Assembly (NCBI GenBank): GCA_903887845.1
Contig: CAISRC010000120.1
Span: 651-24,650, forward strand
Reading direction: 5' to 3'
Length of the DNA stretch: 24,000 nucleotides
From: an uncultured Chlorobiaceae bacterium
GTDB lineage: Bacteria; Bacteroidota; Chlorobiia; Chlorobiales; Chlorobiaceae
Each line of letters begins with the position of its first letter. Position 1 is the first letter of the stretch. Positions 1,437 to 22,571 of this stretch are shown piece after piece. The translations under genes were made by a program, and so were the position numbers. The notes beneath the pieces were generated by a model. The model ran no database searches, was not told the DNA's origin, and saw nothing but the letters and a program-made list of their open reading frames with translations.

Positions 1437-1685
1437 GGGATATCTCCCTTCAACATGCAGAATTGCACCGTTTTACCTGGGCCATCAATCAATGCCTTAT
1501 CTCCTCTCTTGCTTCATTCAGTGCTTTGAGTTATGTTACCTCGTTCTTTTACCGTACCCGTTGTTTGCCCATCGTGTTTTGTTTGAGATCAAAACAACCG
1601 TTAATGTACAAATAACTTGTGCTCTTATAAGCGATTTTGCTGGAAGCGAACGACGAATCTTACTTTTTAAAACAATGGAGCAGAG

Positions 1686-1871: not shown

Positions 1872-1886
1872 CATATATCTCTTCTT

Positions 1887-2306: not shown

Positions 2307-2369
2307 AGAGAATAGGCAAGAAGCGTTCAACTGCATAGAGTGGCTGATCCGTTTTTACTACGGCAAATC

Positions 2370-2546: not shown

Positions 2547-2643
2547 AATGATCTCTGTTGATTAAAAGAGAGTTTACTGAAAATTTTGGAGAGAGACAAA
2601 GAGTGCGGAGAGAGAATTCCTTTCGCCTGTTTTGGATAACAGT

Positions 2644-2669
2644 AAGGGGAGATAGCTGTATCTCCCCTT
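2644..2669 (-). terminator. perfect 11-bp stem hairpin downstream of the 2695..3393 gene (possible terminator, no clear U-tract)
   Basis: AAGGGGAGATA (2644-2654), loop GCTG, TATCTCCCCTT (2659-2669). It lies 25 nt beyond the stop of the minus-strand gene. Confidence 0.4.
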
Positions 2670-2694
2670 TGCATAAACTTTATCAAAAAATCAA

Positions 2695-3393: not shown

Positions 3394-3459
3394 GTGTATT
3401 CTCCTGTTGTTAAAAGTTGTTTAGTAATAAGGTCTCTATGTATCTGACGATCTTTTTAT

Positions 3460-5193: not shown

Positions 5194-5197
5194 AGGA

Positions 5198-8767: not shown

Positions 8768-8983
8768 TATGGCTTTGCCTCGGCAGGCTGGATGATGGGT
8801 GTAAAAGCTCAAGATATAATCATCAATGATAGCTATCTCCTGAAATGAAAGCAAAAACGAAATCAACATTGACAATGTTCGGAGCTAATCGTCAATAATC
8901 TCATCTCATCAGACGAGGTTTAGCTAAGAGATACTAAAAGTTTGATGATTCTTTTTTTCCTGTGTTATCGGCGCTATCTTTCG

Positions 8984-9025
8984 TACAGTTAATCGGAAAA
9001 AAGTCGATTAACTGTAGATTTTTTT
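8984..9025 (+). terminator. orphan intrinsic-terminator-like hairpin (12-bp perfect stem + T7)
   Basis: TACAGTTAATCG (8984-8995), loop GAAAAAAGT, CGATTAACTGTA (9005-9016), then GA and TTTTTTT (9019-9025). No + strand gene lies upstream of it in the window. Confidence 0.45.
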
Positions 9026-9171
9026 CAGTAGGAGACCGGCGTTTCGCTTTACAGGATTTGTCTGCTGGAAAAAATTATCGACGCATGACGGGGTGTAGAA
9101 AAGTCCCAGGCCAACGCTTGAAATCCCATATAGATTACATCGCAAAAGTTAAAAAACAGAATAACAAAACC

Positions 9172-9486
9172 ATGATCACACCACTACAAAACATTATTAA
9201 CCAGATTGAGGCCGGGCAGTACAAAGAGGCTTATAACGCCTTGAAGATGATGAGAAAAGACCCGACACTTTCAGATGAGCTTCTGGAAGTTGTAGAAATT
9301 GCCAGCATTGAAATTGGAGTGACCGAAAAGCGCATGCAGTTGGAACCGAAAGGCGGTTTTTATGCGAAAAGCGCAGTATTGAGGCTGCAGGAAGCTTTAG
9401 GCGATCCAGAGGCGGCTGAACGATTGAGAATTTTAAAGGAACAGATGAACCTTACTATAGACGCACAAGTCAATAGCAGAAACTAA
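9172..9486 (+). CDS. hypothetical small helical protein (104 aa)
   Basis: The track ORF 8962..9486 contains the terminator-like hairpin in its 5' part. The internal ATG 9172 gives MITPLQNIINQIEAGQYKEAYNALKMMRKDP... I do not recognise a family. Confidence 0.4.
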   Translation: MITPLQNIINQIEAGQYKEAYNALKMMRKDPTLSDELLEVVEIASIEIGVTEKRMQLEPKGGFYAKSAVLRLQEALGDPEAAERLRILKEQMNLTIDAQVNSRN

Positions 9487-9779
9487 CTGACGTCAGCCGC
9501 GACAACCTGAAGGTACATTTCCCAATCTGCTCAAACGGGGTCATCTGATCCTGCACGGCAGTGGAGGTGAAGTCTTTTATAAACAGGAACCGCCATCAAG
9601 CATCCAAAAATCAAAGAGCGGACGGCATCTCATTTTATTGCCCTTAATGCCTTATTACTCATGCAATAAGACGGATATTATCGATAGCGAATGATAAGCC
9701 ATTCACCTAATTTGATTTCTGTTCAAATACCGGTATATTTGAGTGGCAATTCATGCATTAGTGGGTAAATAAGAGCTTT

Positions 9780-10127
9780 ATGACTGAAACATCATTCACC
9801 AACTGGGCGTCAATGAGTGACAAGGCGCTGACTGAGCATATAGGTGCTTTTGTGCGGCACCATCGCCTGGAGCAGAACAAAACCCAGGATGCGCTTGCTC
9901 ATGCGGCCAGTATCAGTCGGTCAACCCTGAGTTTACTGGAACGTGGTGAAACGGTTACCCTGACCACCTTAATTCAGGTACTAAGAGTATTGGACCAGTT
10001 GCAGGTAATGGCGGCTTTTGTGGTTGAGCAGCGCATCAGTCCATTGGCGATGGCCAAAATGCAGAAAGAAAAAAGACAAAGAGCAAGAGGAAAACAGGGC
10101 GACGATACAACGGAACATGAATGGTAA
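9780..10127 (+). CDS. hipB: XRE-family HTH antitoxin (HipB-like)
   Basis: 115-aa ORF with an HTH segment ..NKTQDALAHAASISRSTLSLLERGE.. Its stop is 3 nt before the hipA start. The basic C-terminal tail (KEKRQRARGKQ) is not essential to the call. Confidence 0.75.
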   Translation: MTETSFTNWASMSDKALTEHIGAFVRHHRLEQNKTQDALAHAASISRSTLSLLERGETVTLTTLIQVLRVLDQLQVMAAFVVEQRISPLAMAKMQKEKRQRARGKQGDDTTEHEW

Positions 10128-10130
10128 AGG

Positions 10131-11435
10131 ATGAACGTAGCGGAAGTTAAAATATGGGGGGAATTGGCGGGTGCCGTAGCCTGGGACGAACTCTCCGGCC
10201 TGGCTACGTTTGAATATGCTTCCAGATTCAAGTCGAAAGGATGGGATCTTGCGCCCCTGCATATACCCCTCTCCGCCCCCAAGAGCACCTATGCCTTTCC
10301 TGCCTTGCGTAAAAAGGCCGAACCAGCCCTTGATACCTTCAAAGGATTGCCGGGATTACTCGCCGACGTCCTGCCCGACAGATACGGAAATGAGTTGATC
10401 AACCTCTGGTTAGCACAGCAAGGCCGCCCGCAGAACAGCATGAATCCGGTGGAGATGCTTTGCTTTATCGGCACCCGGGGTATGGGTGCTCTGGAGTTCG
10501 AACCGGCGACTTGGAAAGAGAGCAAAAGAACCTTTTCCGTCGAGATAGAGACTCTGGTGGAGATTGCAAAAAACATGCTCTTCAAAAAAGAGGCCTTTAC
10601 CGCCAACCTGCAAGCGGATGAAAAAAAGGCGATATCGGAAATTCTTCGTATCGGTACTTCGGCTGGCGGCGCACGACCAAAGGCCGTGATTGCATACAAC
10701 GTAAAAACAGGAGAAGTCCGCTCCGGCCAGACCAATGCTCCCAAAGGTTTCGAGCATTGGCTTGTAAAGCTGGACGGAGTGAGTGACGTGCAATTGGGAA
10801 CCAGTCATGGCTATGGAAGGGTGGAAATGGCGTATTACAAGATGGCAACGGCCTGCGGTATAACCATGATGCCATCCCGATTGCTTGAAGAAAACGGCAG
10901 AGCACACTTTATGACCAAACGCTTCGACCGGGAAGGCGGTTCAACGAAACACCACCTTCAAACCTTCTGCGCATTGAAGCACTTTGACTACAACTCAGTC
11001 ATGAGTTTCAGCTATGAGCAGCTTTTTCAAACCATGCGTGAATTGAAACTTCCCTACCCTGACGCAGAGCAAATGTTCAGAAGAATGGTTTTTAACGTAG
11101 CCGCACGAAACTGCGACGACCATACCAAAAACTTTTCGTTCCGGTTAAAGAAAGATGCCAAATGGGAACTGGCGCCAGCTTACGATGTCTGCCATGCCTG
11201 GCAGCCCAATCACCAATGGGTAAGTCAGCATGCCTTGAGCATCAACGGGAAACGAACGAACATTACAAAAGAAGACCTTTTGATCATCGGCAAATCCATC
11301 AACAATAAAAAAGCAACAGAGGCAATTGACGAAATCAATGCAACGGTAGCGCAATGGAAAACGTATGCTGATGAAGTTGCGGTGTCGCCTGAATTACGAG
11401 ACAAAATTGCCAGAACACTTATCTACTTGAAATAA
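10131..11435 (+). CDS. hipA: HipA-family serine/threonine kinase toxin
   Basis: 434 aa. It has a HipA N-terminal coupling region, ..GTSAGGARPKAVI.. and the catalytic loop ..ARNCDDHTKNFSF.. (D-x-H-x-K-N), followed by ..LAPAYDV.. Confidence 0.85.
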   Translation: MNVAEVKIWGELAGAVAWDELSGLATFEYASRFKSKGWDLAPLHIPLSAPKSTYAFPALRKKAEPALDTFKGLPGLLADVLPDRYGNELINLWLAQQGRPQNSMNPVEMLCFIGTRGMGALEFEPATWKESKRTFSVEIETLVEIAKNMLFKKEAFTANLQADEKKAISEILRIGTSAGGARPKAVIAYNVKTGEVRSGQTNAPKGFEHWLVKLDGVSDVQLGTSHGYGRVEMAYYKMATACGITMMPSRLLEENGRAHFMTKRFDREGGSTKHHLQTFCALKHFDYNSVMSFSYEQLFQTMRELKLPYPDAEQMFRRMVFNVAARNCDDHTKNFSFRLKKDAKWELAPAYDVCHAWQPNHQWVSQHALSINGKRTNITKEDLLIIGKSINNKKATEAIDEINATVAQWKTYADEVAVSPELRDKIARTLIYLK

Positions 11436-11497
11436 TACCTGCCTTTGCCAACGACATTCCGCCATCAAAAGATGACCCGACTAACTCTATTGCATCT

Positions 11498-12562
11498 TTA
11501 CTCGTTGTCGCTCCTATCCGCATTATACTCTTCTGCCTCCTCCAATAACAGCGTACGTTCCCGCTCCAGCTCCTTTCGCAGCTCTTCTTCGGATGGCAAT
11601 ACCAATTTATAGCGGCTGGCAAATAACTGTTCACTGCCATTCAATACCGAATAGCGAACCACAGACTCGTCCTTTTGCGAACACAAAATAATGCCAACAG
11701 CAGGATTGTCACCTTCGCCGCGTTTGAGGTCGTCATACATGCGCACATACATGTCCATCTGCCCTATGTCCTGATGGTTGAGCTTGCCGCTCTTCAAATC
11801 AATCAGCACAAAGCACTTGAGCAGATAGTTGTAAAAAACAAGATCGATATAAAAGTCCTGTGACTCGGTACTGATGCGCTGCTGTCGGGCAACAAAAGCG
11901 AAGCCCTTGCCCAGTTCGAGCAAAAAAGCTTGCAGCTTATCCATCAGTGCCTGTTCCAGCTTTGACTCCAGCAGCTTGCCCGTGCCAGGCAGACCAAGGA
12001 ACTCCAGCATCACGGGGTCATGCACGAACTCCCGGGGACTTTGAGGCAAAGCCGCAATATTGGCAGCAGCCTCAGCCTTCACGCTGGCCTTGTCGCTGCT
12101 GAGCACCAATCGTTCGAAATAGAGCGTGCCAATCTGCCGATCCAGTGCGCGGGCGCTCCAGTTCTGCAAGGCAGATTCGTTCAGATACCACTCTCGGGCT
12201 TCCTTGCTCGTGACTCGCAGCAGTGTCCGATAATGCGACCAGCTCAATTCGCGACGCACTGTGTCGCGAATTGGAAAAGCAAGATAAAAACCTCGCATGT
12301 GCCGCAAATTAGTTGCATCAAACCCCTTGCCAAACTCACGGGTCAAAGATTCCGCCAGTCGCGACAACAGCTTCTTGCCATAAGCTGCGCGTGCCTCGCC
12401 ACCCTGCTCAAACTCTACAATATGGCGGCCAATCTCCCAGCAGGTTTGCACCTGCACCCTGTCCACAGCGTGCAGGGCCTGCTGTCGGCCTTGCTGAATC
12501 AGTTCCCGCAGGGCATGCAGCAAGCCGGATAAGGGTGGAGTGTTCGGTATCAGATTTGTCAA
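11498..12562 (-). CDS. YhcG/DUF1016-family PD-(D/E)XK nuclease-domain protein
   Basis: 354 aa. N-terminal ..CWEIGRHIVEFEQGGEARAAYGKKLL..GKGF..NLRHMRGFY.. and C-terminal ..FYIDLVFYNYLLKCFVLIDLKSGKLNHQDIGQMDMYV.. are the recognisable DUF1016 signatures (D ... D/E-L-K core). Confidence 0.8.
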   Translation of the reverse strand: MTNLIPNTPPLSGLLHALRELIQQGRQQALHAVDRVQVQTCWEIGRHIVEFEQGGEARAAYGKKLLSRLAESLTREFGKGFDATNLRHMRGFYLAFPIRDTVRRELSWSHYRTLLRVTSKEAREWYLNESALQNWSARALDRQIGTLYFERLVLSSDKASVKAEAAANIAALPQSPREFVHDPVMLEFLGLPGTGKLLESKLEQALMDKLQAFLLELGKGFAFVARQQRISTESQDFYIDLVFYNYLLKCFVLIDLKSGKLNHQDIGQMDMYVRMYDDLKRGEGDNPAVGIILCSQKDESVVRYSVLNGSEQLFASRYKLVLPSEEELRKELERERTLLLEEAEEYNADRSDNE

Positions 12563-13197: not shown

Positions 13198-15486
13198 TTA
13201 TTTCTGAACCTTCGCTAACATCAACTCTGTCAGAGTTACAGCAAAAGGAAAAGCCGATTTCCGACCGCCTTCATATTTTTCAAGCTTTGTTAGATCCCAT
13301 TCTACGTTATCAAAAGCATCATCAGTTACCATCTCAACTCTATAAACAAGGTAAGAATCACCAGAAGGTCTTGTATATCCGGTTTTCAACATTTGATCTT
13401 TTGAAAAAACTCTCGGACCCTTTTCTTTTATTCTCCACAGGGAACCGGCATTCAATTCCGCTTCAGTGTGAAGTAAAAGATATGATGCATCAGCAGTTAA
13501 AGAATCAATCCTTATTGAACCTCTTGAAGAGTTCATCCGGACATTGTATAATCCTTTTTTTTCTATCCAGTGGTAGTGTTCGGCATCCTTGTAATATCCG
13601 ATAAGTACACTGGTATCGCCTGGAGGCAAAACCCTTTTGCCGTTACCATAATGCTCAGGCATCTGATCTCTGACGATAAAGTCATTCGTATCATTATGGA
13701 TATCATAAATCCGGTAACTCAACTGCTCTCGCTGTGATGCCCTGTTCTGAACATGATGAACAACCTCAAGAATGAACTGTTTTAACTCTTCGATACCGGT
13801 TCCGTCTGCTGAAGGTCGAACAGGAAAGGCTCCAAGTCCCGGAATCAGTTCATGAAAGCCTTTTTTGGTGTCCGTTCTAGTGCCAGGATATAATACATAG
13901 GAACCTGCAGTTCTTCTGATAGCGTCTTTATAAGCATGCATTTTAAGAAGATCATCTCTTTTTCCTGTCCTTTCATCAATGTTTCCGGCAGTATCTTCCC
14001 CTGATTCAGTCCCGTCGTCAAGTAATTCAAGAAACTCTTTAACCTTATACTTGGCATCGAAATGAACATGAACTATCAATTCCTGCTCTTCTGCCTGTTT
14101 TTCTGAAAAACCTTCAGGCCAGAGGCTCAGCGTATAATCCGGTCTCATAGAAAGCGTCCAGCTCCCCCCAGCAGGGTAGCTTTTATTGCCTGAAAACGTT
14201 CTGTTATAGGCAAACTGCACATTAAGCTTTCGTCCACTTTGATCAAAAACCCCCTTAAGCGGGAAATGTCTGCCCGATCTCAATGCAAGACCGAGGCCGT
14301 CGGAAGTCGGCTCGATAAGATTTTCAATTGATTCCGGTTCAATAGTAAAAATCCCTTTCAGCAGATCCAGTAGTTTAAAGAACAGCCAGTATTCATAAAG
14401 AATGGCAACATCTCTCTTGCCGGCAGCATAAACGTCATCACCGCCATGCCAGATAAGCTTTGAGGCAAGATCAAACATAAACCAGACTCGTAATACTTCC
14501 CGATAACCCTCTTTTCTCTGAAGTACCGGGCTGTTAAGGGGTAGAATGTCAGGGTTCGATAACTCTCTAAAAAAAGCACGGGAAAGTAACTCTTCGAGCA
14601 TCTCTTCCAGAAAGAGTGCCTCTCTATATGAGCGGCCCTGGTTCTCGGATAATTTTTCACGTATAACAGAGCAGAATGTGCAAAACTCAGTTAATGCGTG
14701 TTTGACAAAACGGTTCTCTGCTGTATCAAGCGTATCATGTTTCCGGGTAATACTGATCTGCTTAGGAACATGCGCAATTGTTGATGCAAGCGCATGAAAA
14801 TCAGGAAGATTAATCCGGTTTGATGCTGACGCAAGCTGCCGTGAAAACGATCTGTTAGGGCGGCCTGCCCTTCTGATATCAGTATCTGCCTCGAACTCTT
14901 CCCATGCTGTTACAGGAGAAAGAATTATCCGGTAAACAGCATCAAGAAATTCAGGTGACTCAAGAATAGATTTAATAAAAGCAAACCGCTGGTAAAGAGT
15001 TGACGCATCAGAGGATGCATCCACAGAATACTGTTGTGCAACCGGAGAGGTATGTAGCATCAAAAGATCTGTACACTTCTCCGTAATCTCTTCAAGCATA
15101 AAGCGGTAATCCGTACGGTATGAGGTTTTTACCGATCTCACTTCGAGTGTCACCGATCCCTTCTTCTCTTTCGAACCGGAATCGATGACATCAGCAGAGA
15201 GGGTTCCGACGTAGGTATTGGGAGTGATTCTGCCGCTCGAAGGATGTATCTTCGAGTGTTGAACAACGCCGCTGATCTCCTCTAATTGGTACTCTGCCGG
15301 GTTAATCTGGTATTCGTAGGCGCACCCCTCCTTAAGCTGGTAGGGAGATTCTCCGTTCGACTCAGCTTCGGCTGAATCAATAACGGCAAGTGTAAAATCA
15401 ACAGAAGATTCAGCGGAAATGATAAGCTTACATGTTTCACCATTAACCAGGTGAAACGTTATTTCGCATTTATTTTTTTCTAACAT
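13198..15486 (-). CDS. DUF2357-like + PD-(D/E)XK (DUF524/COG1700-type) nuclease, McrC-analogous subunit, with extra ~170-aa C-terminal domain
   Basis: 762 aa. ..GRITPNTYVGTL..LEVRSVKTSYRTDYRFMLEEI.. resembles DUF2357. The nuclease core is ..MRPDYTLSLW..VHVHFDAKYK..LLKMHAYKDAIRRTAGSYVLYPG.. The start is 11 nt after the stop of the McrB-like gene. Confidence 0.75.
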   Translation of the reverse strand: MLEKNKCEITFHLVNGETCKLIISAESSVDFTLAVIDSAEAESNGESPYQLKEGCAYEYQINPAEYQLEEISGVVQHSKIHPSSGRITPNTYVGTLSADVIDSGSKEKKGSVTLEVRSVKTSYRTDYRFMLEEITEKCTDLLMLHTSPVAQQYSVDASSDASTLYQRFAFIKSILESPEFLDAVYRIILSPVTAWEEFEADTDIRRAGRPNRSFSRQLASASNRINLPDFHALASTIAHVPKQISITRKHDTLDTAENRFVKHALTEFCTFCSVIREKLSENQGRSYREALFLEEMLEELLSRAFFRELSNPDILPLNSPVLQRKEGYREVLRVWFMFDLASKLIWHGGDDVYAAGKRDVAILYEYWLFFKLLDLLKGIFTIEPESIENLIEPTSDGLGLALRSGRHFPLKGVFDQSGRKLNVQFAYNRTFSGNKSYPAGGSWTLSMRPDYTLSLWPEGFSEKQAEEQELIVHVHFDAKYKVKEFLELLDDGTESGEDTAGNIDERTGKRDDLLKMHAYKDAIRRTAGSYVLYPGTRTDTKKGFHELIPGLGAFPVRPSADGTGIEELKQFILEVVHHVQNRASQREQLSYRIYDIHNDTNDFIVRDQMPEHYGNGKRVLPPGDTSVLIGYYKDAEHYHWIEKKGLYNVRMNSSRGSIRIDSLTADASYLLLHTEAELNAGSLWRIKEKGPRVFSKDQMLKTGYTRPSGDSYLVYRVEMVTDDAFDNVEWDLTKLEKYEGGRKSAFPFAVTLTELMLAKVQK

Positions 15487-15497
15487 TCCGCAGGGTC

Positions 15498-17132
15498 TTA
15501 TGCTTCAGCAAAACTGGTAAAGCCATCCATCTGAACTCTTTTCTGCATCCGCATAATTTTTTCAAGGGAAACCGGAAAACGGATTTTTTCGCGGTCAGTA
15601 TAGTCAATCTCTTCAGGTTTACTGAGCAGCGTCCCTTCCTGACCCGCAGTCAAACAAAGAAGGGAAAGCTTATTCAAAACCGGCTCAAGCTTTCTTCTGG
15701 AACCATGCAGCTTCGGGAGAAGCTTCTGTACGATTGCTGAATCGACAATATCCACAAGAACCCATTGTGCACCTTGCGTCAGTTTTTTGAAGATTAATGT
15801 ATACCGGAAAATATCAGATGCAGTCCTGTAACCAAACTCGGCACCCGTTTTTTTCAATTCTTTAAAAAATTCAACAAGCACATTATTCAAATCATCAGTG
15901 TCAGAAAAATCAGAGATTTCAGCTTTGGCAAGTTCAACAAAAGCCTTGCCCATACTGCTGCCTAATCCATTTATAACATCAATATCAGGCTTTACCGGAT
16001 TTTTTAGGAAACCGGTCATTTCCGACTCTGAAACTCTGAACTCGATAACACTCGCCCGATCAAGCACTTTCGGGCTGAACATGTAGGTGGTTTCATCAAT
16101 ATTGACGGTACCGACCACAAAAAGATTCTTTGGAACAACAAGCCTTGAAGGGACACCGCTCATTACATCTTCAGATGAATGAAGCTGAAGCTCTTTGCCT
16201 GATTCAAGGACACTAAGAAAATCGGCAAAATAACGTTCAACATGGCTCAGATTCATCTCATCAAGAATCAGAAAAAACGGTTTTTCAGCGTTTTCCGGTT
16301 TGATCGCTTCGAGAAGCAAATCAATAACTCCGCTTTCAGGCTTGACATAAACTGTATTATCAAGAGCATTCGGATAACCTAACAAGGGTTCTCTATTTGT
16401 CCAGTCAGCCCCTACCGGAACAATTTTATACTGATTATCACTTTCGCATATCCACTGAGCAAAAGCCTGAGCCAGCTTGGTTTTTCCAGATCCGGAAAGT
16501 CCGGTAAGAATTACTAATGGTTTTGTGCATAGCGAAGCGATAAAACGGCTAATCAAGTTATGATGTATTATTATATTAGCTTTAATAAGTTCTATGGAAA
16601 ATTCATAGCTTAATGCGCTTATTTCGGCATCAACATTAAGGATATACTGCTCGAAAACAGGAATCTGCATCCAAATCGAGTTAAGACTTTCATTAGCAAA
16701 CTCTTCATACAATCTTATTAGTGCTATAATTCCTTCCTTAGACTCTGTTTTGCCGATGGCCTGATTTCTAAAATGATTAGCCCCTACATAGGGAATATCA
16801 TAGAGATATGAAGCTAATCTATTATGAATTTTAGATTCTCTAGGTGAGATTGCTTTTTCTAGCACATGCAAAGGTTCAATTTCAATCTTGAAGTAGTTAG
16901 GTTTTGCTGAATCATAACCTTCATCATAAGGAGAGCGACTTATTTTACCAAAAGCCTTTAATCCTTGATCCCATGTTATAAGGGATTTATCGCCGCCAAA
17001 ATAAATAAACACAGGGTCATTAACGGCTATTTCGGTTTTAAAATTCGAAATAGCATCATGAATAAACGTTTCATTATTCTGAATCTTTCTAATAATTGAT
17101 TCGGCGCTAATTTTTACTATAAATACTTTCAT
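15498..17132 (-). CDS. McrB-family AAA+ NTPase (AAA_5 type) with an unassigned ~190-aa N-terminal domain
   Basis: 544 aa. Walker A LTGLSGSGKTKLA, Walker B region FFLILDEMNLSHVERYFADFLSVLE, and the McrB-type segment VVGTVNIDETTYMFSPKVLDRASVIEF. The start ATG overlaps the methyltransferase stop (TAATG at 17130-17134). Confidence 0.8.
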   Translation of the reverse strand: MKVFIVKISAESIIRKIQNNETFIHDAISNFKTEIAVNDPVFIYFGGDKSLITWDQGLKAFGKISRSPYDEGYDSAKPNYFKIEIEPLHVLEKAISPRESKIHNRLASYLYDIPYVGANHFRNQAIGKTESKEGIIALIRLYEEFANESLNSIWMQIPVFEQYILNVDAEISALSYEFSIELIKANIIIHHNLISRFIASLCTKPLVILTGLSGSGKTKLAQAFAQWICESDNQYKIVPVGADWTNREPLLGYPNALDNTVYVKPESGVIDLLLEAIKPENAEKPFFLILDEMNLSHVERYFADFLSVLESGKELQLHSSEDVMSGVPSRLVVPKNLFVVGTVNIDETTYMFSPKVLDRASVIEFRVSESEMTGFLKNPVKPDIDVINGLGSSMGKAFVELAKAEISDFSDTDDLNNVLVEFFKELKKTGAEFGYRTASDIFRYTLIFKKLTQGAQWVLVDIVDSAIVQKLLPKLHGSRRKLEPVLNKLSLLCLTAGQEGTLLSKPEEIDYTDREKIRFPVSLEKIMRMQKRVQMDGFTSFAEA

Positions 17133-18208
17133 TAGGCATTATAATTTATATCAATATTACTTTCAATAAATAAATATGGACACTTAGCATATGTTTTTAA
17201 AATAGATTCAAATATAATTTTTGATAATGCAGGCGGAACAGCCATACCAATTTGCTTTCTAACGCTTTCTTTGGCTCCAAAAAAAGCATAATCATTCGGA
17301 AATGATTGGATAGCGGCTCTTTCCCTATTAGTTAATGCCCTGTTTTCGTAATAATGATACCCATGAGTACCTCCACCGCCACTTCCTGTAATTGTATATG
17401 AAGGTTTATCCGGATGAAGTCTTTTATATATCTGGCTTAACTTAGCGTTCTCGACATTTAGGCGCAAATGTTCAGGCATTTTTGATGTCCAAACATTTTC
17501 ACCAGGACTTATATATTTTAATCTTTCAATCACTTTTTTTGATTGATTTGTAAACTCATTATTTGGTGCGTCGAAAGGAATTGATTCTAACACTTTAGAT
17601 ACAGGTATATAGTTGTTTTTTGTGGTCTGTGCTGGTACTCTATATTTTAGTTCTAATGACTTCTGAATCCCAACAATTATAATCCGATGCCTTGTTTGAG
17701 CTATACCGTATTCTTCAGCTTTATATAAGTGCGAAACGATATCATAACCATCACCTGAGTTGGATAAGTCATTCAAGATTTTCTTAAATGCCTCCCCATC
17801 ATTTGCAGATCTGATCCCGCCAACATTTTCTGCAATAAAAAACTTTGGCTTAAACTTATTTATAACATTGATACCGTATTTGTAAAGCGGACCATAAGTC
17901 CCAGCAAAACCTTTTTGCTTCCCAACAATACTAAAGTCATTGCAAGGGAAGCCATATGCAAATATATCAATTGATGAAAGATTATCTATATTTAAAAGCG
18001 CAATATCTTCACAATAAACACTGCCGGAATGCGCCCCAGGTATATTCATTATATATGTTTGACATGAGTCATGGTCAATATCGTTAGACCAAGCATGTCC
18101 ATAAGAATAATGAGTCCCTCCATACTCAAGACTACTATTTATAGCTCCATAAGCCAAACCGCCTGGCCCAGAAAATAATTCACCTAAATTCAGTTTTATT
18201 TTTTCCAT
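17132..18208 (-). CDS. dcm: DNA (cytosine-5)-methyltransferase
   Basis: Canonical C5-MTase motifs in order: LFSGPGG (I), GFPCNDFS (IV), FIAENV (VI), QTRHRIIIVG (VIII), RALTNRERAAIQSFP (IX), QIGMAVPP (X). The track start is TTG 18217. ATG 18208 (MEKIKLN..) is preferred. Confidence 0.9.
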   Translation of the reverse strand: MEKIKLNLGELFSGPGGLAYGAINSSLEYGGTHYSYGHAWSNDIDHDSCQTYIMNIPGAHSGSVYCEDIALLNIDNLSSIDIFAYGFPCNDFSIVGKQKGFAGTYGPLYKYGINVINKFKPKFFIAENVGGIRSANDGEAFKKILNDLSNSGDGYDIVSHLYKAEEYGIAQTRHRIIIVGIQKSLELKYRVPAQTTKNNYIPVSKVLESIPFDAPNNEFTNQSKKVIERLKYISPGENVWTSKMPEHLRLNVENAKLSQIYKRLHPDKPSYTITGSGGGGTHGYHYYENRALTNRERAAIQSFPNDYAFFGAKESVRKQIGMAVPPALSKIIFESILKTYAKCPYLFIESNIDINYNA

Positions 18209-18225
18209 CAAATACAACCAGTATT

Positions 18226-18663
18226 TTAAAATTTAAGTTCTTGGAACAAGATATCTTTTAATCTTACTCTATCTTTAATTTCGCATTCCCATATTATTAA
18301 AACGCGCCAGCCCATATCTTCAATTAACTTTTTATTTATGAAGTCAGAAGTGACATTCTTTTTTAATTTATTATACCAATATTCAATATTTGTTTTTGGT
18401 TGAGTCGCACGAGAACAACCTTCATGCCTATGCCAAAAACAACCATGTATAAATATAACTGTCCTGTATTTTGCGAGCACAATATCAGGTTTACCAGGAA
18501 GAATTCCCTTCGCATACGCTTTTTTAGAGATCTTTCCATGCAGTCTGAAGCGATAACCCATTCTGTGCAATAGAGACCTAACCAGCTTTTCCGGTTTTGT
18601 GTTACTGGATTTTATACGGCTCATATTCCAGCTTCGCCGTTCTTTTGTCAAAAGATCAGCCAT
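18226..18663 (-). CDS. vsr: very short patch repair endonuclease (Vsr)
   Basis: ..RSWNMSRIKSSNTKPEKLVRSLLHRMGYRFRLH..LPGKPDIVLAKYRTVIFIHGCFWHRHEGC..WRVLIIWECE.. is the Vsr signature. The track start is TTG 18681. ATG 18663 is preferred. Confidence 0.9.
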   Translation of the reverse strand: MADLLTKERRSWNMSRIKSSNTKPEKLVRSLLHRMGYRFRLHGKISKKAYAKGILPGKPDIVLAKYRTVIFIHGCFWHRHEGCSRATQPKTNIEYWYNKLKKNVTSDFINKKLIEDMGWRVLIIWECEIKDRVRLKDILFQELKF

Positions 18664-18842
18664 CTCCGCATATAGTAACAATATAAATCAATAATACTTA
18701 CGCCTGTAATCAGGAAAATGCAGTCAACCACATTGCTCTTCTCTACATGATAGACAAGATAGGACATCTACTGTTGCTTATCCAATGCAATATTGTGGGA
18801 ATGAAATGAAAACAAAATCAACTGTTCAACACACACTTTAGC

Positions 18843-19222
18843 ATTTTCAGCAACTTGAGGGAAATATCTCAGCCAGCGTTCTCGGTAATCTCGCCTTCCT
18901 GTCCGTTTCCATCATCGTCGTCACGCTCCTCTTCGAAAGGGAGCGCCAGTCGGTCATGAGAAAACTAAACATGGCCATCGGCGTCTTTTTCAGTGAATTC
19001 GGCAACCGCCTGCTGAAAGAGTTGTCGGTACACGTGGTCGGAAGCGAGGAGCTGAAAGACCGTCTGCGTATGACCGCATCATGGAAAAAACAGGATTTTG
19101 AGGCGGCGCTCGAGTATCTGCGCCGAACCAACCAGAGGATCATCATCGACTGTGACGCACTCCCCTGCCTGAAGCAGTTAATGGCCGGAAAACGGAGCGG
19201 CCTCCTGAGCCTGCTGGAAAAC
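18843..19222 (+). pseudogene. truncated, frameshifted paralogous fragment of the membrane-protein gene at 21261..22019
   Basis: Nucleotide alignment by eye pairs 18843-19222 with 21353-21750. The fragment has a 2-bp insertion (ATATCTCAGCC vs ATATCAGCC) and a 15-bp deletion between GAAAGGG repeats. The embedded 91-aa ORF (18956..19231) differs from residues ~74-164 of the intact protein at 14 positions by my count. The N-terminal and C-terminal parts are missing. Confidence 0.8.
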
Positions 19223-19239
19223 AGGAGCTGAAGTATCGG

Positions 19240-19278
19240 ACAGTTATCGGACATTAAGCATGGGTGTTCGATAACTGT
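19240..19278. repeat. 14-bp inverted repeat / hairpin at the junction of two gene fragments
   Basis: ACAGTTATCGGACA (19240-19253), 11-nt loop, TGTTCGATAACTGT (19265-19278). This gives 13 Watson-Crick pairs and one G-T pair. TATCGGACA also occurs directly upstream (19234-19242). Confidence 0.7.
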
Positions 19279-19318
19279 TTAATGAACCAAAGTATATCGC
19301 CGTCCCCGCTTATCGCCG

Positions 19319-19519
19319 CCAAAGAGCGCTTCTCTCCACGTAGGCAACTCAGTACTCTTTGTCGAGCGCTAGTATTTCCTCGTCGCTGAAGTCGGGGATA
19401 ACTTTCACCCCGGTACCAGTATGAAGATTTTTCAGGAGCGAGATGAAGGTTTCAGGCGAGTAACGGTTTCGCAGGGTATAGTCAAGCACCGGCACAAGCT
19501 CACTGAAAAAGTGCATCTC
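19319..19519 (-). pseudogene. ~200-bp fragment homologous to an internal part of recB
   Basis: Minus-strand translation EMHFFSELVPVLDYTLRNRYSPETFISLLKNLHTGTGVKVIPDFSDEEILALDKEY*VAYVERSALW aligns with intact RecB ..RMHFFREPAPLLGYTLRNRHSPETFLSLLKNLHAGTGVKVIPDFSDEEIITLDKECSAAYAETSDLW.. (encoded at 8094-8293). It contains an internal stop and has no flanking recB sequence. Confidence 0.8.
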
Positions 19520-19572
19520 CTCGCTTAATTGACAGCGACAGGCATTTTCAATTATCCATTCTTGATTCTGTT

Positions 19573-20267
19573 CTATTCCTGTTCATTCTCAACTCCTCCC
19601 AGCTTTTTCGCCGACGATTGTGCCCGTCGATCCAGCTTTCTCAGATCCTCTTCAGGTTTCGGCAACTCTTCGGGCATCGTGCCACCCAGTTCCTTAATGG
19701 TCTGGCGTACTTTTTTGCCGACATCAAAATGGGTCTGGTTTGCTTTGAGCCTTCCCTGAATATTTGCCCTGCGAAGTTTTTCCTCTGTCTGCGTCGTACG
19801 GAAGAGATTGGCAGCCTATTGTGCTCGCGCATTTCGTTACGGAGAAAAAGCCGTTTTTCCTCCTCCTTGAGTCATTTGAAAGCCTCATCGTCAGCCAACT
19901 CCTGTCTGCATGTCTGGATGGCGAAATATGTCTGGCCGTTGGCTATAACAGGCTTGGATGTATCAGATTTCTGGACAATCAGATAACAGGCATAACGGGA
20001 GAGTCTTATATCCTCCAGTTTTCGCTTGGCTCCTGAACCGATTTCGACCATTTCGAGGACATCCTCGAAATGGTCTCTGACTTCATGACTGCTGTTTTGA
20101 CAGGCTTCTTTCGCCCTTTCAACAACAGGAATAAAATGGCGATGCTCAGAATAATCCAGTGTTTTTTAAAGCTTTCGAGCCGTCCAAAATTCTTTGCCAT
20201 TTTCGCCAGTCTGCTTTATCTCTTCAAACGTCTGGTGATGTCTTTTTTCTATCTCCTTGCTGCTCAT
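19573..20267 (-). pseudogene. dinD: DNA damage-inducible protein D (DinD) pseudogene
   Basis: Translation from ATG 20267 reads MSSKEIEKRHHQTFEEIKQTGENGKEFWTARKL*KTLDYSEHRHFIPVVERAKEACQNS..LSRYACYLIVQ..GQTYFAIQT.RQELADDEAFK*LKEEEKRLFLRNEMREHN. It then jumps frame to AANLFRTTQTEEKLRRANIQG..THFDVGKKVRQTIKELGGTMPEELP.. There are in-frame TAA (20166-20168) and TGA (19871-19873) stops. An internal deletion/frameshift lies near 19815-19820. Confidence 0.75.
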
Positions 20268-20317
20268 GGCTGCATTTCCTTTAAAAATTGACAGTTGATA
20301 ATGGATAACGAAAGCCA

Positions 20318-21223
20318 TTATTCACTACTTTTCTCTTCCAGTTTTTTGATACTCCGATCATCGACCAGCAGCGCCATTTGGTGGATGGCTGTCCGATTGA
20401 GCGTTTGCAGCCGTTCGGACTGACTGAGCCCTTCCTGAATAAAATGGGCATTGAGGTTTTCAAGATTAGCCAGGCAAACCAATTGAGAAACATTGGCAAA
20501 GTCACGGATGTTGCCGTTATCATCAGGATTTTCATCACGCCACTCTTTGGCGATTTTTCCGAAGAGTGCCATGTTCAGAATGTCCGCTTCGGATGCGTAG
20601 ACCAGGTTTATTTGCTCTTTGGTCAACTCTTGAGGGATGAGATGCTGTTTGATGGCATCAGTATGAATGCGGTAGTTGATTTTAGTCAGGTTGCGGCGAA
20701 TATCCCAGCCAAGCTGTTTGAATTCCTCATTTTTCAATCGCTGGAACTCTTTGATGAGGTAAAGTTTAAATTTTGGAGATATCCATGACGCAAATTCAAA
20801 GGCAATATCTCTGTGAGCATAGGTTCCGCCATAACGACCTGCTTTGGCAACGATACCAATGGAACCTGTTTTTTCCACCCACTGCTTGACCGATAACACA
20901 AAACGGTTCAAGCCTGCCTCGTTTTTAATTCCCTCGAATTCGGGGGAATTAAAATGTTCGTTGTAGATCTGCTCCCAGATGCCGATGAACTCTATGGTCC
21001 TGGATTTTTGCAGGATCGCGAGTCGTAATTATAACCATCTTTCCGGGCAAAAGCCGCTTGAGCTCAATAATATGGATACATCATCACCGAATAACCGGAA
21101 ATTCCGAGAACATTTATAAATCCTCAAGCGATGTTGGTGTTCGTGACGAGCGTAACACGGGTTGTGTGGTTTTCTTTTCTCAGCGAACGATAAAATGTAT
21201 TCGCCTGTTTGTTTATTATGCAA
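20318..21223 (-). pseudogene. KilA-N domain protein gene interrupted by an in-frame TAA
   Basis: The downstream part (..SRTIEFIGIWEQIYNEHFNSPEFEGIKNEAGLNRFVLSVKQWVEKTGSIGIVAKAGRYGGTYAHRDIAFEFASWISPKFKLYLIKEFQRLK..) is a clear KilA-N family match from memory. The same frame continues upstream through TAA at 21029-21031 into the 64-aa ORF 21029..21223. The only start for the downstream part is an internal TTG. Confidence 0.65.
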
Positions 21224-21260: not shown

Positions 21261-22019
21261 GTGTTTATGTTTAAAAAACTGTTTATGAACAAGGTGTGGA
21301 CGGTGTCCGCCCTCTTTGCCATCTCGCTGGCCCTTTATGGTATTGACTTCACTATTTTCGGCAGCTTGAGGGAGATATCAGCCAGCTTTCTTGGCAATCT
21401 CGCCTTTCTGCCCATTTACATCATCGTCGTCACGCTGCTCTTCGAAAGGGTGCTCAAGGAAAGGGAGCGGCAGTCGGTCATGAGAAAACTGAACATGGTC
21501 ATCGGCGTCTTTTTCAGTGAATTCGGCAACCGCCTGCTGAAAGAGTTGTCGGTACACGTGGTCGGAAGCGAGGAGCTGAAAACGCGCCTGCGTATGAGCG
21601 CATCATGGAAAAAAGAGGATTTTGAGGCGGCGCTCGACTATCTGCGCCGAAGCAGCCAGAGGATAAGTATCGATAGTGATGCCCTTCCCTGCCTGAAGCA
21701 GTTCATGGTCGGAAAACGGAGCTTCCTCCTGAGCCTGCTGGAAAACCAGAATCTGCTTGAGCATGAAAATTTTACTGACCTTCTCTGGGCAGCGTTTCAT
21801 ACCATTGAAGAGCTTGGGGCCCGGGAGTCGTTCGATGGTATTCCATCAAGCGACAAAGAACACATCAACGGCGACATAAGGCGGGTTTTTGGTCATCTCA
21901 TCCGGGAATGGGTCCTCTATATGCAGCATCTCAGGGAGGATTACCCCTATCTTTTCTCTCTGGCAGTTCGTCTCAATCCTATGATCGACTCACCGGATCC
22001 GGTGGTATATCAGGACTGA
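21261..22019 (+). CDS. hypothetical membrane protein (two predicted N-terminal TM helices + soluble domain)
   Basis: 252-aa ORF (GTG 21261; alternative ATG 21267). Hydrophobic stretches are VWTVSALFAISLALYGI and FLGNLAFLPIYIIVVTLLF. I do not recognise a family. A diverged partial copy lies at 18843-19222. Confidence 0.7.
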   Translation: MFMFKKLFMNKVWTVSALFAISLALYGIDFTIFGSLREISASFLGNLAFLPIYIIVVTLLFERVLKERERQSVMRKLNMVIGVFFSEFGNRLLKELSVHVVGSEELKTRLRMSASWKKEDFEAALDYLRRSSQRISIDSDALPCLKQFMVGKRSFLLSLLENQNLLEHENFTDLLWAAFHTIEELGARESFDGIPSSDKEHINGDIRRVFGHLIREWVLYMQHLREDYPYLFSLAVRLNPMIDSPDPVVYQD

Positions 22020-22096: not shown

Positions 22097-22549
22097 ATGA
22101 GACTTACAAAGATACATGCTGGTCCGGTGCTCGACTTTTTTACCCCGGACTTTACAACGCAGCTTGAGTTGCCGCTTGCCGGTACCGCAATCGCTGCTGG
22201 CTTCCCCTCTCCGGCTGAAGAGTATCTGGATCTTGCCCTTGACCTGAACAAGGAGCTGGTCAAGCATCCGGCGGCGACTTTTTATGCCAGGGTGAAAGGC
22301 GACTCCATGGTTGAAGCGGGCATTCAGGATGGTGACTTGCTGGTTATCGACAAGGCCCTTGAGCCGAAAGAGGGCTGCATTGCGGTCTGTTTTATTGATG
22401 GCGAGTTTACGGTGAAGCGTCTGGCGGTGCGGGATGAGGGCGTCTACCTCATGCCTGCCAATGCTGAATTCAAGCCGATCAGAATCACTGAAGACAATGA
22501 GTTTCTGGTGTGGGGCATTGTGGCATACGTGATTCATAAACCCAGATAA
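22097..22549 (+). CDS. umuD: translesion polymerase V accessory subunit UmuD (LexA-like S24 peptidase)
   Basis: 150 aa. It has an Ala-Gly cleavage-site-like ..IAAGFPSPAEEY.., the catalytic Ser in ..KGDSMVEAGI.. and the Lys in ..FTVKRL.. Confidence 0.9.
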   Translation: MRLTKIHAGPVLDFFTPDFTTQLELPLAGTAIAAGFPSPAEEYLDLALDLNKELVKHPAATFYARVKGDSMVEAGIQDGDLLVIDKALEPKEGCIAVCFIDGEFTVKRLAVRDEGVYLMPANAEFKPIRITEDNEFLVWGIVAYVIHKPR

Positions 22550-22571
22550 CTACAGCAGGAGATACCACACC

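What the first reader, a model, noticed from the sequence alone, without database searches (positions are those of the whole stretch)
13198..18663. Four-gene operon vsr / C5-methyltransferase / McrB-like NTPase / DUF2357-PD-(D/E)XK nuclease: a methyltransferase-coupled McrBC-type restriction module
Seen in sequence: four minus-strand genes are packed almost without spacers. The vsr stop lies 8-17 nt before the dcm start. The dcm stop and the McrB-like start overlap in TAATG (17130-17134). The McrB-like stop lies 11 nt before the nuclease start. Established knowledge: classical McrBC attacks methylated DNA, so a C5-methyltransferase that overlaps the NTPase gene, suggesting translational coupling, is paradoxical for a Type IV system. 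The only precedent I know is the LlaJI-type arrangement, where m5C methylases sit with McrB-like R1 and McrC-like R2 subunits and the methylation protects. Inference: this operon is probably a protective-methylation, NTP-dependent restriction system. It is built from a non-canonical McrB (new N-terminal domain) and a DUF2357/DUF524 nuclease instead of McrC. An in-operon Vsr would repair the T:G mismatches generated by m5C deamination. I do not recognise this exact four-gene combination as a described system.
Basis: partly seen in the sequence, partly recalled or inferred. Interest (0 to 1): 0.8.

Follow-up and report, generated by a model that had tools for sequence, protein, structure and literature searches.

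The report
Methyltransferase-coupled McrBC-type restriction operon
A horizontally acquired four-gene operon in a probable Chlorobium genome joins a cytosine methyltransferase and its mismatch-repair nuclease to an McrBC-type motor and nuclease whose DNA-reading domain belongs to a family that normally reads methylated bases; it is most likely a restriction-modification system of an already known kind, but with an unusual reader that always travels with its methyltransferase.

Summary
Four tightly packed minus-strand genes encode Vsr, a C5-methyltransferase (Dcm), an McrB-like NTPase and a DUF2357+PDDEXK_7 nuclease, and all catalytic motifs are intact.

- DUF2357+PDDEXK_7 is the McrC architecture itself, not a replacement for McrC.
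- The NTPase N-terminus is not a new fold. It is a divergent EVE/PUA-like domain.
- The architecture has precedents beyond LlaJI. PcaI (Birkholz 2022) is experimentally shown to restrict unmethylated DNA, and Bell et al. 2024 report methyltransferase-associated McrBC clades.

New here: this EVE-like reader subfamily is accompanied by one orthologous Dcm (49–62% identity, conserved TRD) in 18 of 18 informative loci from at least 7 phyla. The pair occurs on three different McrBC backbones: two NxD classes and a classical NxxD type. Vsr is present in 10 of the 18 loci and an NgoFVII-type endonuclease in 6. Three backbone relatives with 5mC-reader domains lack any methyltransferase. A GC3 break inside mcrB marks the junction between reader and motor.

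This is inferred, not shown.

Verdict: new variant of a known kind; moderate interest.

The parts
18226..18663 (-). vsr: very-short-patch T:G mismatch endonuclease (145 aa from the ATG at 18663; coordinates include the stop codon)
   Evidence: Pfam Vsr 4.8e-27, NCBIfam TIGR00632 2e-40 (above cutoff), PADLOC Vsr 7.2e-31. The KPD60 and HGCFWH motifs are present.
17132..18208 (-). dcm: C5-cytosine DNA methyltransferase (358 aa)
   Evidence: Pfam DNA_methylase 1.6e-73, TIGR00675 8.2e-49, PADLOC MTase_II 9.4e-109. FSGPGG, FPC89, ENV and RERAAIQSFP motifs are present. The TRD (about aa 200-295) is as conserved across 16 orthologues as the catalytic motifs.
17130..17134 (-). TAATG overlap of the dcm stop codon and the mcrB-like start codon
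   Evidence: Read directly from the sequence. The same tight M-to-B junction, an overlap or a gap of about 110 nt or less, is seen in most related loci.
16662..17132 (-). EVE/PUA-like reader domain (NTPase aa 1-157), the presumed specificity module
   Evidence: AF2 model pLDDT 86.6, pTM 0.84. Foldseek best hits are 2eve, THYN1 bound to 5mC DNA, YTH domains and VcaM4I. Pfam EVE scores 18.7 bits, below the cutoff of 23; 19 of 23 family members match at E<=0.1. GC3 is 0.255, similar to dcm.
16533..16661 (-).
   Evidence: GC3 is 0.24-0.32 for vsr, dcm, reader and linker, against 0.34-0.42 for the motor and nuclease. Linker length and sequence vary between homologues.
15498..16532 (-). McrB-type AAA+ NTPase core (aa 201-544) with the NxD variant of the signature motif
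   Evidence: AAA_5 3.6e-5, McrB PRK11331 2.2e-6, PDC-M26A 6.7e-53. About 60% identity to more than 8000 McrB-family proteins. Walker A is GSGK217T, Walker B is D291/E292, and the signature is GTVN344-I-D346-ETT.
14482..15234 (-). McrC N-terminal (DUF2357) domain of the 762-aa nuclease (aa 85-335), preceded by an 84-aa N-terminal extension (15235-15486)
   Evidence: Pfam DUF2357 6.5e-37. Identified as the McrB-activating McrC N-terminal domain in PMC11090510.
13876..14400 (-). PD-(D/E)xK nuclease domain (aa 363-537)
   Evidence: Pfam PDDEXK_7 3.6e-28. RPD450 and D477-A-K479 are intact.
13201..13623 (-). C-terminal YTH/EVE-like (PUA-like) domain of the nuclease (aa about 622-762); a feature of the backbone
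   Evidence: AF2 pLDDT about 90 over this stretch. Foldseek best hits are YTH domains at E 3e-4, TM normalised to target 0.45-0.5, so the fold match is weak. Homologues occur only as tails of PDDEXK_7 proteins. The domain is also present in methyltransferase-less controls.
17138..17166 (-). Candidate internal sigma-70-like promoter (TTGAAA-17-TATAAT) inside the 3' end of dcm; weak evidence
   Evidence: It matches 11 of 12 consensus positions. However, the region has fewer promoter-like sites than shuffled controls and is AT-rich, so this may be a chance match.

Best explanation
This is an NTP-dependent restriction-modification module built on an McrBC-type chassis.

Proposed mechanism:
- Dcm methylates a specific cytosine-containing motif throughout the host genome.
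- Vsr repairs the T:G mismatches produced when those 5-methylcytosines deaminate.
- The McrB-like protein uses its N-terminal EVE-like domain to recognise the same motif when it is unmethylated.
- The NxD-type AAA+ ring then hydrolyses NTP and translocates DNA.
- The McrC-like subunit activates the ring through its DUF2357 domain and cuts DNA with its PD-(D/E)xK domain.
- Methylation of host sites blocks reader binding and so protects self DNA.
- Placing M before R, with the TAATG overlap, ties R expression to M expression.

Shown: gene content, intact motifs, the EVE-like fold, and strict co-occurrence of reader and Dcm on three backbones.

For: 1.
2. The pair recurs on three different motor/nuclease backbones. 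These are NxD class 1, NxD class 2 (core 28-32% and McrC 22-27% identical to the window) and a classical NxxD McrB with McrB_lid (the canonical PF10117 McrC partner is documented in L034 and L036, while the Dcm on this backbone is documented in L035). Reader and Dcm identities show no backbone-class structure (0.53/0.50 and 0.60/0.60 within/between classes), whereas core and McrC do (0.57/0.37 and 0.43/0.30).
3. The Dcm TRD is as conserved as the catalytic motifs, implying one shared target that matches a conserved reader.
4. Three relatives on the same class-1 backbone whose N-termini are MrcB_N, ScoMcrA_N or MrcB_N+EVE have no methyltransferase or Vsr.
5. In 6 loci the same Dcm also sits beside an NgoFVII-type PLD+B3 endonuclease. 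That family's characterised members cut unmethylated sites (PMC4267653, PMC5737866). The McrBC part must therefore tolerate Dcm-methylated host DNA.
6. A diverged reader relative (27% identity) pairs with a different C5-methyltransferase (24% identity) on a true RE_LlaJI backbone.
7. Experimental precedents exist: PcaI (Dcm-like methyltransferase, McrB-like GTPase, DUF2357 nuclease) and LlaJI both restrict unmethylated DNA.
Against: - Characterised EVE, YTH and SRA-type PUA-like domains bind modified bases (PMC7641849, PMC12707154). I know of no EVE-superfamily domain shown to read an unmethylated, sequence-specific site.
- No biochemical or genetic data exist for this family or for any NxD-type McrB (PMC11090510).
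- The target motif is unknown.
- In loci that also encode an NgoFVII-type enzyme with its own B3 site reader, a second reader of unmethylated sites looks redundant.
- The nuclease carries a second PUA-like domain of unknown role.
- The sample is about 18 independent loci, mostly from metagenomes.
Confidence: 0.6

Rival explanations
1. This is a composite island made of two independent systems. The EVE-like McrBC pair is an ordinary modification-dependent (Type IV) enzyme that reads some other modification, such as 5hmC, glucosyl-hmC, 4mC or 6mA. Dcm-Vsr, with or without an NgoFVII-type R gene, is a separate Type II R-M module or its orphaned remnant. The two are linked only because defence genes cluster, or because together they cover both unmodified and hypermodified phage DNA.
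For: - The EVE-like fold best matches modified-base readers.
- Backbone relatives with MrcB_N or ScoMcrA_N domains look like ordinary Type IV systems.
- Six loci contain an NgoFVII-type endonuclease that could be the real cognate R of the Dcm.
- Bell et al. 2020 proposed for EVE-associated R-M systems that the methyltransferase makes a mark the EVE domain does not recognise.
- E. coli-type McrBC is often adjacent to Type I R-M systems.
Against: - Mere clustering does not explain why one particular reader subfamily is found with one particular Dcm orthologue in 18 of 18 loci, on three unrelated backbones.
- It does not explain why a diverged reader switches to a different methyltransferase.
- It does not explain why dcm overlaps or directly abuts mcrB in the 12 loci that lack an R gene.
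- It does not explain why the composition break lies inside mcrB rather than between dcm and mcrB.
Confidence: 0.17
2. The logic is still protective methylation, but the reader keeps the ancestral EVE function. In one version it binds the Dcm-made 5mC as a 'self' mark that switches the motor/nuclease off. In another it docks the Dcm protein, so that the methyltransferase supplies sequence recognition, as in Type I and Type III enzymes. DNA lacking the mark would then be cut.
For: - The domain has an EVE-like fold with many invariant aromatic and polar residues, consistent with a retained base pocket.
- Strict co-inheritance with Dcm and the translational coupling (TAATG) are equally well explained by recognition of the Dcm product or by a physical Dcm-McrB complex.
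- This version removes the redundancy with the B3 reader in loci that contain an R gene.
Against: - There is no precedent for an McrBC enzyme being inhibited by reader binding.
- A system that fires in the absence of a mark needs another way to load onto DNA and cannot tell site-free DNA from unmethylated DNA.
- There is no evidence for a Dcm-McrB interaction.
- In L024 dcm is on the opposite strand from mcrB, and in L007, L009, L011 and L021 it is separated from mcrB by other genes.
Confidence: 0.15
3. The module has decayed or been domesticated. Dcm-Vsr acts as an orphan epigenetic and repair pair, and the McrBC genes are inactive passengers.
For: In L014 and L006 the mcrB or mcrC reading frames are split. 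Orphan Dcm-Vsr pairs exist, as in E. coli (general knowledge).
Against: - In the window all four ORFs are full length with intact catalytic motifs.
- Identical copies occur in several samples.
- The split frames are in MAG or metagenome assemblies and may be sequencing errors.
Confidence: 0.05

Closest known systems
PcaI (PcaRCI) R-M system of Pectobacterium carotovorum RC5297 (Birkholz et al., NAR 2022, PMC8989522)
   Same: [quoted passage not shown] PcaI experimentally restricts unmethylated plasmids and phage, and methylation protects.
   Different: M.PcaI is a close Dcm relative (38% identity to E. coli Dcm; target CCNGG), whereas the window's Dcm scores only 1.3e-10 against the E. coli Dcm model. 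No Vsr is reported for PcaI. The fold of the PcaIA N-terminus and its NxD/NxxD status are unknown to me.
LlaJI R-M system (Lactococcus pNP40; PMC1459862) and Helicobacter LlaJI.R1
   Same: Both combine m5C methylation with an McrB-like R1 and an McrC-like R2 carrying a PD...(D/E)XK motif. In LlaJI, unmethylated DNA is the target and the N-terminus of R1 confers site specificity. A distant relative of the window's reader sits on a true RE_LlaJI backbone next to a methyltransferase and Vsr (L037).
   Different: LlaJI has two methyltransferases for an asymmetric site, a B3-like reader (PMC12707154) and a nuclease of Pfam family RE_LlaJI. The window has one methyltransferase, an EVE-like reader, a DUF2357+PDDEXK_7 nuclease, an NxD signature and a Vsr.
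EVE-McrB / McrBC Type IV systems (E. coli McrBC; T. gammatolerans YTH-McrB; census in PMC7641849 and PMC11090510)
   Same: Same modular plan: an N-terminal PUA-like reader, an McrB AAA+ NTPase, and a McrC made of DUF2357 plus PD-(D/E)xK. The window's motor core is about 60% identical to McrBs that carry MrcB_N or EVE readers.
   Different: Those systems have no cognate methyltransferase and attack modified DNA. Bell et al. 2024 noted methyltransferase-associated clades, including NxD ones, but deferred their description to a later paper.
CglI / NgoAVII ATP-dependent R-M systems (PMC4267653, PMC5737866, PMC5861437)
   Same: Both have an m5C methyltransferase plus a motor-dependent restriction complex. 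Six relatives of the window locus carry an NgoFVII-type R gene (PLD+B3) between dcm and mcrB.
E. coli Dcm-Vsr pair
   Same: A C5-methyltransferase gene adjacent to vsr, with Vsr correcting T:G mismatches from 5mC deamination (established knowledge; family assignments).
   Different: In E. coli the order is dcm then vsr, the genes overlap, and the pair is an orphan. Here vsr precedes dcm and the pair is fused to a restriction module.

Membership tests
McrBC family (chassis) | McrB-type AAA+ NTPase with Walker A, Walker B and the Nx(x)D signature motif | tested here: met
   GSGK217T, D291/E292 and GTVN344-I-D346 (the NxD variant) are present. AAA_5 scores 24.2 bits against a cutoff of 22. The NCBIfam McrB equivalog gives only 2.2e-6, far below its cutoff. 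About 60% identity to proteins that sources name McrB.
McrBC family (chassis) | McrC partner with an N-terminal DUF2357 domain and a PD-(D/E)xK nuclease domain, encoded directly downstream | tested here: met
   DUF2357 6.5e-37 and PDDEXK_7 3.6e-28. There is an 11-nt gap after the mcrB stop. D450 and D477-x-K479 are intact.
Type IV (modification-dependent) restriction | No cognate methyltransferase; cleavage requires modified DNA | tested here: not met
The biochemical half, dependence on modification, cannot be tested with these tools.
EVE domain (PF01878) / PUA-like superfamily | EVE beta-barrel fold and a match to the Pfam model | tested here: inconclusive
   The fold criterion is met: Foldseek E 1e-6 to 1e-5 to 2ar1, 2eve and THYN1, TM 0.62-0.67. 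The Pfam score is 18.7 bits, below the cutoff of 23; 19 of 23 family members match at E<=0.1, the best at 1.2e-6. A profile of the family finds no solved EVE structure by sequence. It is best described as a divergent EVE-like subfamily, with a family-specific GGDKxxIxWxQG insertion relative to the canonical EVE of P0028.
EVE domain (function) | Binds a flipped-out modified base | not testable with these tools
   This needs binding assays or a complex structure. The genomic context argues that the Dcm-made mark is at least tolerated.
LlaJI-type R-M | Two m5C methyltransferases serving an asymmetric site | tested here: not met
   The operon has a single dcm.
LlaJI-type R-M | R1 with a B3-like N-terminal DNA-binding domain | tested here: not met
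   The top 50 structural matches are EVE or YTH domains, with no B3 domain among them.
LlaJI-type R-M | R2 nuclease of Pfam family RE_LlaJI (PF09563) | tested here: not met
   At E<=0.1 only DUF2357 and PDDEXK_7 are hit. RE_LlaJI is found in the distant relative L037.
LlaJI/PcaI-like functional class (methyltransferase-protected, McrBC-like restriction) | A cognate methyltransferase in the same operon as the McrB-like and McrC-like genes | tested here: met
   synteny is conserved.
LlaJI/PcaI-like functional class (methyltransferase-protected, McrBC-like restriction) | Restriction of unmethylated DNA, relieved by the methyltransferase | not testable with these tools
   This is inferred from context only.
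PcaI orthologue | Sequence orthology to M.PcaI, PcaIA and PcaIB | not tested
   The sequences (CP045097) are not in any searchable collection available here. The different methyltransferase subfamily suggests it is not an orthologue.
[not shown]
   [not shown]
PADLOC PDC-M26 candidate system | Matches to all component models | tested here: inconclusive
   The NTPase matches PDC-M26A at 6.7e-53, best stretch aa 179-314. The nuclease has no PADLOC match.

The most novel reading that the evidence does not exclude
The EVE-like domain may keep its ancestral ability to read 5-methylcytosine but use it with inverted logic. Under this reading, it senses the Dcm-installed mark as 'self' and holds the McrBC motor/nuclease off, so that DNA lacking the mark is destroyed. 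Reader and methyltransferase would then form a portable write-and-read self-marking cassette that can be plugged into at least three unrelated McrBC chassis and can also be combined with PLD-B3 nucleases.
Probability: 0.12. Interest if true: 0.85.

Novelty: new variant of a known kind. Interest (0 to 1): 0.58.

Why it matters
McrBC is the textbook methylation-dependent restriction enzyme, and EVE/PUA-like domains are the textbook readers of modified bases. Here a family pairs an EVE-like reader with a cytosine methyltransferase in every informative locus. It therefore bears directly on how a chassis built to attack marked DNA is converted into one that attacks unmarked DNA.

That would be useful as an epigenomic reagent.

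The family would also give a tractable genetic phenotype for NxD-type McrB GTPases, none of which has been characterised (PMC11090510). It puts detail on the 'surprising' methyltransferase association that Bell et al. reported but left undescribed. Finally, the portable vsr-dcm-reader cassette is a clear example of specificity-module swapping between defence chassis.

Tried and rejected
The word-indexed search found only 8 extra clusters, which suggested the domain was nearly unique. The exhaustive profile search and the A4 HMM showed 150-180 representatives, so I dropped the rarity claim.
2. **Misassigned controls.** I first treated P0010 and P0031 as controls with other N-termini. The true controls are P0028, P0037 and P0059.
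3. **Target from neighbours.** I tried to infer the target as GCSGC from the NgoFVII-type neighbours. Those R proteins have no sequence match to solved R.NgoAVII, so the specificity cannot be transferred.
4. **Target from structures.** The nearest solved methyltransferase is M.HaeIII at low identity, which is uninformative.
6. **Direct sequence comparison with LlaJI.** The Lactococcus plasmid hit H8 has no methyltransferases and is not LlaJI. pNP40 is not in the plasmid collection.
7. **PcaIA and PcaIB sequences** could not be obtained.
9. **Promoters and terminators.** The scan gave nothing above chance.
11. **Co-evolution.** The mirror-tree style reader-Dcm correlation was weak (r about 0.3), so I make no claim of residue-level co-evolution.


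Full report
**1. Observation**

The window has four consecutive minus-strand ORFs.
- vsr: 18226-18663, ATG start, 145 aa.
- dcm: 17132-18208, ATG start, 358 aa.
- McrB-like NTPase: 15498-17132, 544 aa.
- Nuclease: 13198-15486, 762 aa.

There are 17 nt between the vsr stop and the dcm ATG. The dcm stop and the mcrB start overlap in TAATG at 17130-17134. There are 11 nt between the mcrB stop and the nuclease ATG.

HMM searches confirm the families:
- Vsr, 4.8e-27.
- C5 DNA_methylase, 1.6e-73.
- AAA_5, 3.6e-5 (just above Pfam's cutoff), with NCBIfam McrB at 2.2e-6 and PADLOC candidate PDC-M26A at 6.7e-53.
- DUF2357, 6.5e-37, and PDDEXK_7, 3.6e-28.

All catalytic motifs are intact: McrB K217, D291/E292 and N344-I-D346; nuclease D450 and D477-A-K479; Dcm C89; Vsr D60.

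The operon has 33-45% GC, against about 50-56% in the flanking genes. The flanking UmuC clusters at 90% identity or more with Chlorobium and Chlorobiaceae MAG proteins. The operon is therefore an acquired island in a probable green sulfur bacterium. It sits among other defence and mobile-type genes: HipBA, a YhcG-type nuclease, KilA-N, UmuDC and a RecB/RecD-like pair. Identical copies occur in several metagenome assemblies.

**2. What the parts are**

*The nuclease.* It is not an alternative to McrC. PF09823 (DUF2357) is the McrC N-terminal domain that activates McrB, and PF04411 is the McrC nuclease domain (Bell, Wolf and Koonin 2024, PMC11090510).

*The motor.* The NTPase core (aa about 200-544) is about 60% identical to more than 8000 McrB-family proteins with interchangeable N-terminal domains: MrcB_N/DUF3578, ScoMcrA_N and EVE. 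Its signature motif is GTVNIDETT, which is the NxD variant of the McrB NxxD motif. Bell et al. state that no NxD McrB has been characterised. They also state that NxD homologues associated with methyltransferases would be described in a later paper.

An AlphaFold model (pLDDT 86.6, pTM 0.84) best matches EVE/PUA-like readers: 2ar1, 2eve, human THYN1 bound to 5mC DNA, YTH domains and the modification-dependent endonuclease VcaM4I. E-values are 1e-6 to 1e-5 and TM-scores 0.62-0.67.

By sequence the domain lies at the edge of Pfam EVE. The window scores 18.7 bits against a cutoff of 23. Of 23 family members, 19 match at E<=0.1, the best at 1.2e-6.

*A second PUA-like domain.* The nuclease's unexplained C-terminal extension (aa about 622-762) is confidently modelled (pLDDT about 90). 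It matches YTH/EVE-like folds, though weakly (E about 3e-4, TM normalised to target 0.45-0.5). This domain is also present in methyltransferase-free relatives of the backbone. It occurs only as the tail of PDDEXK_7 proteins. It is therefore a feature of the chassis and is not part of the methyltransferase linkage.

**3. Comparative evidence**

I built a profile of the reader domain (A3, A4). An exhaustive search of 1.84 billion representatives found 154 proteins carrying it, almost all 500-800 aa long. Scans of genomes and metagenomes, plus contig look-ups, gave loci from Latescibacteria, Omnitrophota, Lentisphaerales, two gammaproteobacterial lineages, Geobacter, Desulfuromonas, two spirochaete lineages and Pontiella.

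I scored all loci with the window's proteins.
- An orthologue of the window's Dcm (49-62% identity) is present in all 18 loci with enough flanking sequence. It is nearly always directly upstream and on the same strand.
- The other five loci are cut by contig ends within 1.4 kb: L015, L022, L023, L034 and L036.
- Vsr is present in 10 of the 18. One locus has an HhH-GPD glycosylase in the corresponding place.
- Three relatives on the same backbone (core 59-62% identical) carry MrcB_N, ScoMcrA_N or MrcB_N+EVE N-termini. None of them has a methyltransferase or Vsr.

The motors and nucleases fall into different backbones:
- NxD class 1, which includes the window.
- NxD class 2, with the core 28-32% and McrC 22-27% identical to the window.
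- A classical NxxD McrB with the McrB_lid domain. Two such loci show a canonical PF10117 McrC. In a third (L035) the upstream gene is again the Dcm orthologue, at 53% identity over 354 aa including the TRD, while the motor is only about 20% identical.

Mean pairwise identity within and between the two NxD classes:

| Component | Within class | Between classes |
|---|---|---|
| Reader | 0.53 | 0.50 |
| Dcm | 0.60 | 0.60 |
| Motor core | 0.57 | 0.37 |
| McrC-like nuclease | 0.43 | 0.30 |

The Dcm TRD is as conserved as the catalytic motifs, which implies one shared target.

A more distant reader relative (27% identical) sits on a true LlaJI-family backbone, where the nuclease matches Pfam RE_LlaJI. 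It is next to a different C5-methyltransferase (24% identical) and a Vsr.

It is 0.34-0.42 for the motor core and the nuclease. The break falls inside mcrB near position 16530. This supports a vsr-dcm-reader cassette recombined onto a motor/nuclease chassis.

**4. Mechanism**

The best-supported reading, at confidence about 0.6, is a protective-methylation, NTP-dependent restriction-modification module.
- Dcm marks a specific motif on host DNA.
- Vsr repairs the resulting deamination mismatches.
- The EVE-like domain targets the McrBC motor/nuclease to the same motif when it is unmethylated.

The arguments are contextual:
- Backbone relatives with 5mC-reader domains have no methyltransferase.
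- The same Dcm also serves an endonuclease family whose characterised members are blocked by methylation.
- No locus has R without M.
- Two experimentally studied analogues, PcaI and LlaJI, restrict unmethylated DNA.

The weak step is that characterised EVE, YTH and SRA-type domains bind modified bases. A sequence-specific EVE-like reader that excludes methylated sites would be new, and it is inferred here, not shown.

Rival explanations:
- A Type IV enzyme that reads some other modification and merely neighbours an independent R-M module (about 0.17). The linkage across three chassis and the intragenic composition break argue against this.
- A reader that binds the Dcm product as a self signal, or that docks Dcm (about 0.15).
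- A decayed module (about 0.05).

**5. Comparison with known systems and novelty**

*Closest functionally.* PcaI (PMC8989522) has the same Pfam-level architecture: a Dcm-like methyltransferase, an McrB-like GTPase with an unrelated N-terminus, and a DUF2357/PD-(D/E)xK nuclease with N- and C-terminal extensions. Its phenotype has been demonstrated. LlaJI works in the same way, but the window fails three LlaJI membership features: two methyltransferases, a B3 reader and an RE_LlaJI nuclease.

*Already reported.* The general association of McrBC clades with methyltransferases is stated by Bell et al. 2024, so the architecture as such is not new.

*Not found in the searchable literature.*
- That the specificity module is an EVE-like subfamily.
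- That it forms a portable cassette with one Dcm orthologue, and often with Vsr.
- That this cassette sits on at least three McrBC chassis.
- That it optionally includes an NgoFVII-type nuclease.

I rate the finding a new variant of a known kind, with interest about 0.58.

**6. Limits**

- The evidence is purely computational.
- About 18 independent loci were examined, mostly from metagenomes or MAGs.
- The target motif is unknown.
- Two fold libraries were unavailable.
- The fold match for the nuclease's C-terminal domain is weak.

Noticed in passing
[not shown]
   Followed up: partly
L007 7273-7965 (also L026/L027): An HhH-GPD glycosylase gene sits between the R gene and mcrB in a locus that lacks Vsr. 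It may be a functional substitute for Vsr in repairing T:G mismatches from 5mC deamination.
   Followed up: no
window 13201-13623 (nuclease aa about 622-762): The McrC-like nuclease carries its own C-terminal YTH/EVE-like domain, so the complex has two PUA-like domains. It is also present in methyltransferase-free relatives and its role is unknown. The fold match is weak (E about 3e-4).
   Followed up: partly
L037 (P0189 locus), 603-10907: A dense R-M cluster containing an HTH gene, two genes with RE_NgoFVII_C (B3-like) domains, Vsr, a 599-aa unknown protein, a C5-methyltransferase, an McrB-like gene with a distant EVE-like N-terminus, an RE_LlaJI nuclease and an RE_Bsp6I gene. It shows that LlaJI-family backbones can also carry EVE-like readers.
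   Followed up: partly
L030 7909-8661 (Pontiella agarivorans): A DUF3800 gene is inserted between the EVE-like mcrB and mcrC genes, and Vsr is on the opposite strand downstream. This is a variant layout of the same system in a cultured organism, which could serve as an experimental model.
   Followed up: no
L014 7926-9834; L006 5785-8062: The mcrB gene (L014) and the mcrC gene (L006) are split into two or more ORFs, while dcm and vsr are intact. This is either decay of the R genes leaving an orphan M, as expected for R-M systems, or assembly and sequencing frameshifts.
   Followed up: no
window 17138-17166 (-): A near-consensus sigma-70-like promoter (TTGAAA-17-TATAAT, 11 of 12 positions) lies inside the 3' end of dcm and ends 6 nt before the mcrB ATG. 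It could give dcm-independent, leaderless expression of the R genes, or it could be a chance match in AT-rich DNA.
   Followed up: no
window 9780-12562: A HipB-like HTH gene (9780-10127) and a HipA toxin gene (10131-11435), followed by a YhcG/DUF1016 PD-(D/E)xK nuclease gene (11498-12562, minus strand), lie next to the operon. The neighbourhood looks like a defence and toxin-antitoxin island.
   Followed up: no
window 3460-8875 (-): A 1225-aa UvrD/RecB-like helicase gene overlaps a 584-aa RecD-like helicase gene. In another assembly of the same island (L001), this segment is replaced by a PIN-domain gene and ATP synthase genes, so strains differ at the island border.
   Followed up: no
window 18682-20300 and 21261-22019: The region upstream of vsr has no convincing full-length ORF. 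It contains a 91-aa fragment (18956-19231) matching the MJ1433_C family, and a full MJ1433-like gene lies at 21261-22019. This looks like gene remnants or an insertion scar at the island edge, next to KilA-N (20318-20911) and umuDC (22097-23849).
   Followed up: no
plasmid hits H6 (NZ_CP064190.1) and H19 (NZ_CP104151.1): On Rhizobium and Sinorhizobium plasmids, the region similar to the McrB core lies under a gene annotated 'DNA methyltransferase'. This suggests methyltransferase-McrB-like fusion proteins.
   Followed up: no
It is another uncharacterised specificity module on this chassis.
   Followed up: no
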